Source: Escherichia coli (GTDB lineage Bacteria > Pseudomonadota > Gammaproteobacteria > Enterobacterales > Enterobacteriaceae). Taken from it: a stretch of 64,000 nucleotides of DNA. A model generated the notes under the pieces. The model made no database searches, was not told the origin of the DNA, and saw only the letters and a list, made by a program, of their open reading frames with translations. The position numbers and the translations under genes are program-made. This document shows, in pieces, positions 24,827-25,419 of this stretch. Positions within the stretch are counted from its first letter, which is position 1, and every line of letters starts with the position of its first letter. Location of the stretch: the NCBI RefSeq assembly GCF_003334765.1, contig NZ_QOWT01000001.1. One strand, given 5' to 3'.

Positions 24827-25380
24827 AAGTATTTATTTATGATTAATCAGAGGGTTTATGACAGAGAAAAGGATGTATATTTCTGAGTAAACATGTACAG
24901 GCCTATGGGGTGACTATTTAATGAGTAAATGCCGAATGATTTTCGGGGTGATGATTATAACTTGAGGAAAAATCCCAGCGTGGTTTGAGTAGTGTACCTG
25001 AGTGATATTTGTGTTATGTATGCATTGATTGCAGCAGAATAAATATAGTTCAGGCTAGTATAGTTTATGGTAGCTATGAGAATATATAATCTATTTTACC
25101 TATAAAATAATTTATATGTGTGGGGTTGTTTTTTTAGGTTGTTTGTCTGTGCTTTTATATTCTGGAGATGTGCCTTGTATATAGGATTGTTTGTTGGTTG
25201 TATTTTTTAATGTTGCACTGTTGTGAATTTTTATTTTGATATGATTATTTCTTTAGTATAAGGAGAGAAAGGAACGAGAAAGTTAAATCTATTTATCCTA
25301 ATCGCAATTTCATTGTTTAAATAATCACTATGGATTAATATTTTTTGCGACTCTGCTGAGTTACTGGTTTTAACTAGTGG

Positions 25381-25412
25381 TGTAAAAGGGATACCTTTTC
25401 GGTATCCCTTTT
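25381..25412 (-). terminator. Rho-independent terminator of fyuA
   Basis: GGGATACC-TTTTC-GGTATCCC hairpin followed by U-run on the minus strand. Confidence 0.65.
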
Positions 25413-25419
25413 ACAATAA

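What the first reader, a model, noticed from the sequence alone, without database searches (positions are those of the whole stretch)
24827..25419. fyuA-side HPI boundary is degenerate: AT-rich junction, no second direct repeat, fused to a deleted yeeJ
Only one copy of the 17-bp asn-tRNA 3'-end repeat is present (at asnT, 55866..55882). The roughly 600 bp beyond the fyuA terminator is AT-rich and repeat-free, then runs into yeeJ sequence lacking its native 5' end. This indicates a deletion that removed the distal att site and part of the neighbouring gene after integration.
Basis: seen in the sequence. Interest (0 to 1): 0.4.

Follow-up and report, generated by a model that had tools for sequence, protein, structure and literature searches.

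The report
Truncated fyuA end of E. coli HPI
This is the well-known "anchored" right end of the E. coli yersiniabactin island: an old deletion removed the island's mobility genes, its second attachment repeat and the start of the neighbouring adhesin gene yeeJ, so the finding is real but already described.

Summary
The window is an E. coli chromosome with the yersiniabactin high-pathogenicity island (HPI) at asnT. There is no att repeat on the fyuA side, the DNA after fyuA is AT-rich (31% GC), and it is fused to a 5'-truncated yeeJ.

Three details are wrong:
- **Repeat count.** The 17-mer occurs four times in the window, once in each tRNA-Asn gene, not once.
- **Junction position.** The island/yeeJ junction is at 24416|24417, not 24827.
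- **Origin of the AT-rich DNA.** The 1,003-bp tract (24417-25419) is the island's own DNA: the fyuA terminator, a spacer, and the first 118 codons of the next island gene.

That gene fragment is fused in frame to yeeJ codon 74, giving a chimeric ORF (24020-24769, minus strand). 587 bp of chromosome are missing, and yeeJ carries three further deletions.

The same junction is present in 2,070 of 5,426 complete E. coli genomes. 174 genomes keep the intact conjugative (ICE-type) form, with the second repeat shown in the one such genome I examined. So this was one ancestral deletion that spread, not an event in this strain.

Schubert et al. 2009 (PMC2606025) describe exactly this deletion. Already known; low interest.

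The parts
55866..55882 (-). attL: the 17-bp core CCAGTCAGAGGAGCCAA at the 3' end of asnT (tRNA-Asn 55867-55942). It is the only att copy that borders the island.
   Evidence: The flank TTTTCTGTTTTC matches the int-side flank given for attO in PMC2801613 Table 1.
54443..55705 (-). P4-type tyrosine integrase gene of the HPI. The frame is open for 420 codons, but the start codon is ATA instead of ATG in this lineage.
25420..27441 (-). fyuA, the yersiniabactin receptor gene and the last intact island gene.
   Evidence: The window is 99.99% identical to the annotated genome NZ_CP030768.1.
25381..25415 (-). fyuA terminator-like hairpin: 15-nt arms, 5-nt loop, followed by UUUU.
   Evidence: dG -24.8 kcal/mol, z -7.4.
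24770..25419 (.). AT-rich island spacer between fyuA and the next island gene (GC 0.315). It carries a 222-bp deletion at about 25123-25135 relative to the ICE-type HPI.
24417..24769 (-). First 118 codons of the island's 308-aa hypothetical gene that follows fyuA. The rest of the gene is deleted.
   Evidence: (115 of 119 residues identical to the ICE protein).
24416..24417 (.). Deletion junction between island DNA and yeeJ. Only one nucleotide (C) of microhomology.
   Evidence: The junction is present in 2,070 of 5,426 complete genomes.
24094..24416 (-). yeeJ fragment, codons 74-183 in MG1655 numbering (end of the LysM region to the start of the beta domain). 92.5% identical to K-12.
24092..24094 (.). 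Second junction: a 3,693-bp internal yeeJ deletion with one filler base, which shifts the reading frame.
   Evidence: Present in 2,058 genomes.
21972..24092 (-). Remaining yeeJ Ig-like repeat remnant, with a further deletion of about 283 bp near 23619-23648 and loss of the 3' end (about 450 bp) at 21952-21972.
   Evidence: Annotated as a frameshifted, incomplete pseudogene.
24020..24769 (-). Chimeric 249-aa ORF: island gene residues 1-118, then YeeJ 74-183 in frame, then 24 out-of-frame residues. RefSeq annotates it as WP_000039778.1, 'inverse autotransporter beta domain-containing protein'.

Best explanation
The interval is the truncated right (fyuA-side) border of the common E. coli type of the Yersinia high-pathogenicity island.

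**Inferred history.** An ancestral island integrated at asnT through its P4-type integrase. That reaction creates a 17-bp repeat at each end. A single illegitimate deletion then joined codon 118 of the first gene downstream of fyuA to codon 74 of the chromosomal gene yeeJ. It removed:
- the rest of that island gene;
- the excisionase (AlpA/Hef-type) gene;
- whatever mobility module lay beyond it;
- the right-hand repeat;
- 587 bp of chromosome.

**Consequence.** Without attR and the excisionase, the island cannot excise by site-specific recombination and is fixed in place. In this form it spread through E. coli together with its flanks by homologous recombination. The strain in the window inherited it already deleted.

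**What remains beyond fyuA.** Island DNA only: the fyuA terminator, an AT-rich spacer, and a gene stump that happens to be in frame with the yeeJ fragment.

**Shown here:** both breakpoints, the missing sequences, the absence of any att relic, and the population frequency.
**Inferred, or taken from the literature:** the order of events, the loss of mobility, and the mode of spread.
For: - **Layout.** The window runs serU, mtfA, asnT, int, ybt genes, fyuA, AT-rich tract, yeeJ remnant, yeeL, shiA, amn. It is collinear with MG1655 on both sides.
- **No att on the fyuA side.** There is none even at 3 mismatches; the only other copies sit in asnW, asnU and asnV.
- **yeeJ side of the junction.** yeeJ homology starts at 24416, equal to MG1655 2045213. 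The preceding 587 bp of MG1655 are absent from the window.
- **Island side of the junction.** 24410-25135 and 25123-26000 match the region downstream of fyuA in strain 2-331 at 98.6% and 99.5%. In that strain the sequence continues into AlpA, DUF2857, TraR, virB and mob genes and ends at a perfect 17-bp repeat next to ldtA.
- **Junction structure.** One nucleotide of microhomology.
- **Chimeric ORF.** Its two halves match the ICE protein (97%) and YeeJ 74-183 (89%).
- **Frequency.** The identical junction is in 2,070 of 5,426 complete genomes, and the linked yeeJ internal deletion in 2,058. The intact island gene is in only 174.
- **Published description.** PMC2606025 reports the same unique deletion, the loss of the direct repeat, the damage to the adjacent backbone, ECOR31 as the intact ICE-type exception at asnV, and spread by recombination of the flanks.
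Against: - I could not align a Yersinia HPI directly. In K. oxytoca, the only one of the three I could compare, homology stops at the fyuA stop codon. It is therefore undetermined whether the ancestor at asnT was ICE-type (about 27 kb lost, judging from strain 2-331) or Yersinia-type (a few kb lost).
- Loss of mobility was not tested here. It rests on the literature and on the absence of attR and the excisionase gene.
- No intact-bordered island at asnT was examined. The ICE-type comparator sits at asnV.
Confidence: 0.93

Rival explanations
1. The deletion arose independently in this strain, or repeatedly at a hotspot, rather than once in an ancestor.
For: tRNA-linked island borders are generally unstable. 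yeeJ is repetitive and carries several other deletions in this window.
Against: The junction has only 1 nt of microhomology, so there is no sequence feature to direct recurrence. Yet it is identical in 2,070 complete genomes, including ST131, the type strain ATCC 11775, and bovine, canine and wildlife isolates. It is linked to the same second yeeJ deletion in 2,058 genomes and to private substitutions. PMC2606025 reaches the same conclusion.
Confidence: 0.03
2. The island never had a right-hand att at this locus. It entered by one-ended or illegitimate recombination, so nothing was deleted after integration.
For: No relic of attR or of the chromosomal sequence that would follow it is present.
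Against: The left end is a canonical integrase product. The 17-bp core lies exactly at the asnT 3' end with the standard island flank, and the site-specific reaction creates both repeats. The right breakpoint lies inside an island gene and inside yeeJ, not at an island terminus. The one ICE-type island whose far end I examined (strain 2-331) carries the right repeat.
Confidence: 0.03
3. The AT-rich tract is unrelated DNA, such as chromosomal spacer or the relic of another mobile element, that displaced the att site.
For: Its composition (31-36% GC) differs from both neighbours. It has no Pfam, NCBIfam or Rfam match.
Against: In strain 2-331 it is contiguous with fyuA in an island inserted at a different tRNA gene, with different chromosomal flanks. 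Its gene belongs to a 90%-identity cluster of 1,318 proteins; the listed members are labelled Klebsiella pneumoniae, K. aerogenes, Salmonella enterica and Yersinia pestis. PMC2801613 states that all HPI variants have an AT-rich sequence after the iron-uptake region.
Confidence: 0.01

Closest known systems
Common ('normal') type E. coli HPI, as described by Schubert et al. 2009 (PLoS Pathog 5:e1000257; PMC2606025)
   Same: Insertion at asnT. The int, ybt and fyuA core. A unique deletion at the fyuA border with loss of the direct repeat. Damage to the adjacent chromosomal backbone. A distinct substitution pattern in the flank.
   Different: Nothing substantive. This work adds nucleotide-level breakpoints, the in-frame chimeric ORF and frequencies in 5,426 complete genomes. 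The window's copy also has an ATA start codon in int.
ICE-type HPI (HPI-ICEEc1 of ECOR31; HPI-ICEKp1 of Klebsiella pneumoniae)
   Same: The int-to-fyuA core and the first 1 kb beyond fyuA are 98.6-99.5% identical to the ICE-type copy in strain 2-331.
   Different: The ICE type continues into the excisionase, virB type IV secretion and mob genes and ends in a second 17-bp repeat. All of that is missing here. In strain 2-331, as in ECOR31, the ICE type sits at asnV rather than asnT.
Yersinia pestis / Y. pseudotuberculosis HPI
   Same: The same yersiniabactin core and the same asn-tRNA att system, according to the literature. The gene stump belongs to a 90%-identity cluster whose representative NCBI labels Y. 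pestis.
   Different: From my own knowledge, not tested here: Yersinia islands keep an AT-rich right arm with IS elements, the excision factor Hef and the right repeat, and they can excise. I could not retrieve a Yersinia island for direct alignment.

Membership tests
Common-type (truncated) E. coli HPI | Inserted at asnT, with the 17-bp att core at the tRNA 3' end next to a P4-type integrase gene | tested here: met
   The integrase frame is open, but its start codon is ATA.
Common-type (truncated) E. coli HPI | Complete yersiniabactin core (ybtS-X-Q-P, ybtA, irp2, irp1, ybtU-T-E, fyuA) | tested here: met
   Annotation of NZ_CP030768.1, to which window 17500-64000 is 99.99% identical.
Common-type (truncated) E. 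coli HPI | No direct repeat at the fyuA border | tested here: met
   no match with up to 3 mismatches outside the four tRNA-Asn genes.
Common-type (truncated) E. coli HPI | Deletion extends into the adjacent chromosomal backbone | tested here: met
   MG1655 2044626-2045212 is absent, and yeeJ starts at codon 74.
Common-type (truncated) E. coli HPI | Same breakpoint shared across unrelated E. coli lineages | tested here: met
   2,070 of 5,426 complete genomes span the junction over at least 80% of a 400-bp query centred on it.
Common-type (truncated) E. coli HPI | Island cannot excise by site-specific recombination | not testable with these tools
   Inferred from the absence of attR and the excisionase gene. 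Stated in PMC2606025.
ICE-type HPI (ICEEc1 / ICEKp1) | Conjugative module (virB type IV secretion, mob, excisionase) downstream of fyuA | tested here: not met
   island homology ends at 24417. The next sequence is yeeJ, then yeeL and shiA.
ICE-type HPI (ICEEc1 / ICEKp1) | Flanked by two 17-bp attO repeats | tested here: not met

The most novel reading that the evidence does not exclude
The in-frame chimera (24020-24769) joins the N-terminal 118 residues of an uncharacterised island protein to the LysM-distal/periplasmic segment of YeeJ. It keeps the island gene's own upstream region and is present in about 38% of complete E. coli genomes. It could be an expressed protein with a function of its own, rather than inert debris.

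A second, independent possibility concerns the divergent yeeJ allele attached to the island. It could mark an unsampled donor lineage in which the island was first captured.
Probability: 0.04. Interest if true: 0.3.

Novelty: already known. Interest (0 to 1): 0.08.

Why it matters
The truncated border explains why the yersiniabactin island is immobile in most E. coli, even though it looks like an integrative element. Its single shared breakpoint is the published argument that the island entered E. coli once and then spread with its flanks by homologous recombination (PMC2606025).

For annotation there are two practical points:
- The island's true end is at 24417.
- The 249-aa 'inverse autotransporter beta domain-containing protein' called by RefSeq in thousands of genomes is a fusion artefact of this deletion.

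Nothing here opens a new question.

Tried and rejected
1. **Degenerate att relic.** I searched the 17-mer with up to 3 mismatches across the whole window. Only the four tRNA-Asn copies were found.
2. **Relocated chromosomal DNA.** I looked for the missing 587 bp of MG1655 elsewhere in the window. Only chance hits appeared (E above 0.3).
3. **Structured RNA or repeats in the AT-rich tract.** There were no Rfam matches at E up to 1. Only short, low-identity two-copy repeats were found besides the terminator hairpin.
4. **Promoter and terminator consensus scan.** It gave fewer promoter-like sites than shuffled sequence. It did not call the fyuA hairpin, because the T-run is only four bases.
5. 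**Function of the 308-aa island gene.** No Pfam or NCBIfam match.
6. **Direct comparison with Yersinia.**
   - The single genome-contig scan used a codon-degenerate pattern from the fyuA 3' end. It returned only K. oxytoca, K. michiganensis and S. enterica diarizonae.
   - In K. oxytoca, fyuA is 89% identical and homology ends at the stop codon, so that locus says nothing about this tract.
   - The protein labelled 'Y. pestis' (WP_071239280.1) was found only on a 1.6-kb Logan contig with no flanking context.
7. **Technical limitation.** Several fetched loci (L002, L005, L007, L009, L010) never appeared in the script sandbox. Some comparisons were therefore done with the alignment tool or with re-fetched records.

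Full report
**Setting.** ARAGORN finds four tRNA-Asn genes and tRNA-Ser(CGA) in the window. Window 17500-64000 is 99.99% identical to E. coli NZ_CP030768.1. Its annotation, read from right to left in window coordinates, gives:
- serU (56934-57023), mtfA and asnT (55867-55942);
- a P4-type integrase gene (54443-55705);
- ybtS-X-Q-P, ybtA, irp2, irp1 and ybtU-T-E;
- fyuA (25420-27441, minus strand);
- a 249-aa 'inverse autotransporter beta domain' ORF and an Ig-like-domain pseudogene;
- the yeeL-type glycosyltransferase gene, shiA, amn and yeeN;
- asnW, yeeO, asnU, cbl, nac and asnV.

This is the K-12 asnT-to-asnV region with the yersiniabactin high-pathogenicity island (HPI) inserted at asnT. 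Megablast against MG1655 confirms collinearity on both sides: 55866-60491 at 98.5% and 12076-21952 at 97.7%.

**Checking the observation.**
- The interval 24827-25419 is AT-rich: GC 0.312, against 0.565 for fyuA and 0.585 for the island core.
- It has no repeats of note. The exception is a perfect 15-nt-arm hairpin at 25381-25415, directly after the fyuA stop codon. As RNA it folds at -24.8 kcal/mol (z -7.4) and is followed by UUUU, so it is the fyuA terminator.
- The 17-bp att core CCAGTCAGAGGAGCCAA is given as attO in PMC2801613. It occurs four times in the window, not once: at asnT (55866-55882), asnW (16034-16050), asnU (14149-14165) and asnV (11741-11757). No other match exists with up to three mismatches.
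The point that matters, that there is no repeat at the fyuA end, is correct.

**Where the island really ends.** Sensitive blastn against MG1655 shows yeeJ homology at 24094-24416, equal to MG1655 2045544-2045213 (92.5% identity). It does not start at 24826. The AT-rich composition continues down to about 24420.

One E. coli genome, strain 2-331, matched only the right part of my query (hit H13). Its annotation shows an ICE-type HPI. fyuA is followed by a 308-aa hypothetical gene, then AlpA-family, DUF2857 and TraR genes, a full virB type IV secretion set, a coupling protein, mobC and ArdC. Further on lie a type I restriction-modification cargo and a perfect 17-bp repeat beside ldtA, meaning that island sits at asnV.

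Window 24410-25135 and 25123-26000 match this island at 98.6% and 99.5%. Laying the three sequences side by side places the breakpoint at 24416|24417, with a single shared C. The whole 1,003 bp from 24417 to 25419 is therefore island DNA: terminator, spacer, and the first 353 nt of the next island gene.

**What is missing.**
- On the chromosomal side, MG1655 2044626-2045212 is absent from the entire window. That is 587 bp: the asnT-yeeJ spacer plus the first 218 nt of yeeJ.
- On the island side, everything beyond codon 118 of the 308-aa gene is gone, including the excisionase-type gene and the right repeat.
- In strain 2-331 that missing part measures about 26.5 kb. I cannot say whether the ancestor at asnT was that long.

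**The chimeric ORF.** The two breakpoints happen to be in the same reading frame. ORF 24020-24769 (minus strand) encodes three parts:
- residues 1-118 of the island protein (115 of 119 identical);
- YeeJ residues 74-183 (89% identical);
- 24 out-of-frame residues.

NCBIfam sees only the inverse-autotransporter N-terminal segment, far below the cut-offs. RefSeq names it WP_000039778.1. Its 90%-identity cluster has 2,881 members. It lacks the YeeJ signal peptide, half of the LysM domain and the beta-barrel, so I regard it as debris. The island gene itself has no Pfam or NCBIfam match.

**Further decay.**
- yeeJ carries a 3,693-bp internal deletion at 24092/24094 with one filler base, which shifts the frame.
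- It also has a deletion of about 283 bp near 23619-23648, and its 3' end is lost at 21952-21972.
- The spacer after fyuA has lost 222 bp at about 25123-25135, between the imperfect repeats GGGGTGGTTTTTTT and CGGGTTGTTTTTTT. This is relative to both strain 2-331 and a short contig encoding the protein that NCBI labels Y. pestis.
- The integrase frame is open, but it begins with ATA where other E. coli HPIs have ATG.

**Population.**
- A 400-bp query centred on 24416|24417 is covered at 80% or more in 2,070 of 5,426 complete E. coli genomes. These include ST131, ATCC 11775, and bovine, canine and wildlife isolates. HPI-free genomes match only the yeeJ half.
- The 24092/24094 junction is present in 2,058 genomes.
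- The 3' part of the island gene, which is deleted here, is present in only 174 genomes.
- With one nucleotide of microhomology there is no reason for the breakpoint to recur. This is one ancestral event that spread.
- The yeeJ fragment attached to the island has about 14 private substitutions and a 9-bp in-frame deletion, relative to four HPI-free alleles that barely differ from one another.
- Strain DETEC-S792 has both junctions and most of the private substitutions, but still keeps the 9 bp. The 9-bp loss is therefore later decay.

**Comparison with what is known.** Schubert et al. 2009 (PMC2606025) state that in all HPI-positive ECOR strains except ECOR31:
[quoted passage not shown] - the deletion makes site-specific mobilisation impossible;
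- the island spread with its flanks by homologous recombination.

ECOR31, at asnV, is the intact ICE-type exception. Martinez-Gil et al. 2017 (PMC5595812) also link truncated yeeJ to island insertion at asnT. The finding is a correct rediscovery of this published feature.

**Limits.**
- I could not align a Yersinia island. In K. oxytoca, the only one of the three loci I could compare, homology ends at the fyuA stop codon.
- The only link to Yersinia is that the island gene's 90%-identity cluster has a representative labelled Y. pestis by NCBI.
- Loss of excision is inferred, not tested.

**Verdict.**
- Novelty: already known.
- Interest: low.

Noticed in passing
window 55703-55705 (minus strand): The HPI integrase gene starts with ATA instead of ATG. 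The 420-codon frame is otherwise open, and the only upstream in-frame ATG runs straight into a stop. Of three other E. coli HPIs checked, one shares ATA and two have ATG. It is therefore a sub-lineage polymorphism that probably reduces or abolishes integrase synthesis.
   Followed up: partly
window about 25123-25135: A 222-bp deletion in the AT-rich spacer between fyuA and the next island gene. It is flanked by the imperfect direct repeats GGGGTGGTTTTTTT and CGGGTTGTTTTTTT in the undeleted form, as seen in strain 2-331 and in Logan contig L011.
   Followed up: partly
window 24020-24769 (minus strand): The deletion created an in-frame fusion ORF that RefSeq annotates as a genuine protein: WP_000039778.1, 'inverse autotransporter beta domain-containing protein'. 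Its cluster has 2,881 members. This is most likely an annotation artefact repeated across thousands of genomes.
   Followed up: partly
window 24094-24416: The yeeJ fragment attached to the island has about 14 private substitutions plus a 9-bp in-frame deletion, against four HPI-free alleles that are nearly identical to each other. In one search no record that matched only the yeeJ half of the query exceeded 91.4% identity among the sampled rows.
   Followed up: partly
L018 (NZ_CP116067.1 155153-161560): In strain DETEC-S792 a second copy of the fyuA-end block sits in a different context. The block includes both deletion junctions and about 420 bp of yeeJ remnant. It lies next to a DUF3987 pseudogene, another tyrosine integrase and the RtT sRNA, with an ISKpn26 element in the spacer. 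The truncated end, with its scrap of yeeJ, has evidently been moved or duplicated.
   Followed up: partly
window 16034-16050, 14149-14165, 11741-11757: asnW, asnU and asnV each carry an intact copy of the 17-bp att core and are unoccupied. asnU and asnV are in direct orientation with asnT. Whether the island integrase could ever use them as partners was not examined.
   Followed up: no
window 21952-24092: Besides the 5' truncation, yeeJ has three more deletions: 3,693 bp, about 283 bp, and about 450 bp that includes the stop codon. The 3,693-bp one co-occurs with the island junction in about 2,058 genomes.
   Followed up: yes
L008 (Klebsiella oxytoca NBRC 105695): K. oxytoca carries a fyuA only 89% identical to the window's. 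Homology stops exactly at the stop codon, so this more distant ybt locus has a different downstream arm.
   Followed up: no
window about 1-8300, by annotation of NZ_CP030768.1 5075352-5083663: Left of cobU the near-identical genome is annotated with a frameshifted cobU, IS2, IS4 and ISL3 fragments, and CP4-44-like remnants (zinc-ribbon, inovirus Gp2-family and Hha-family genes). Identity of the window to that genome was verified only for 17500-64000, so this is unconfirmed for the window.
   Followed up: no
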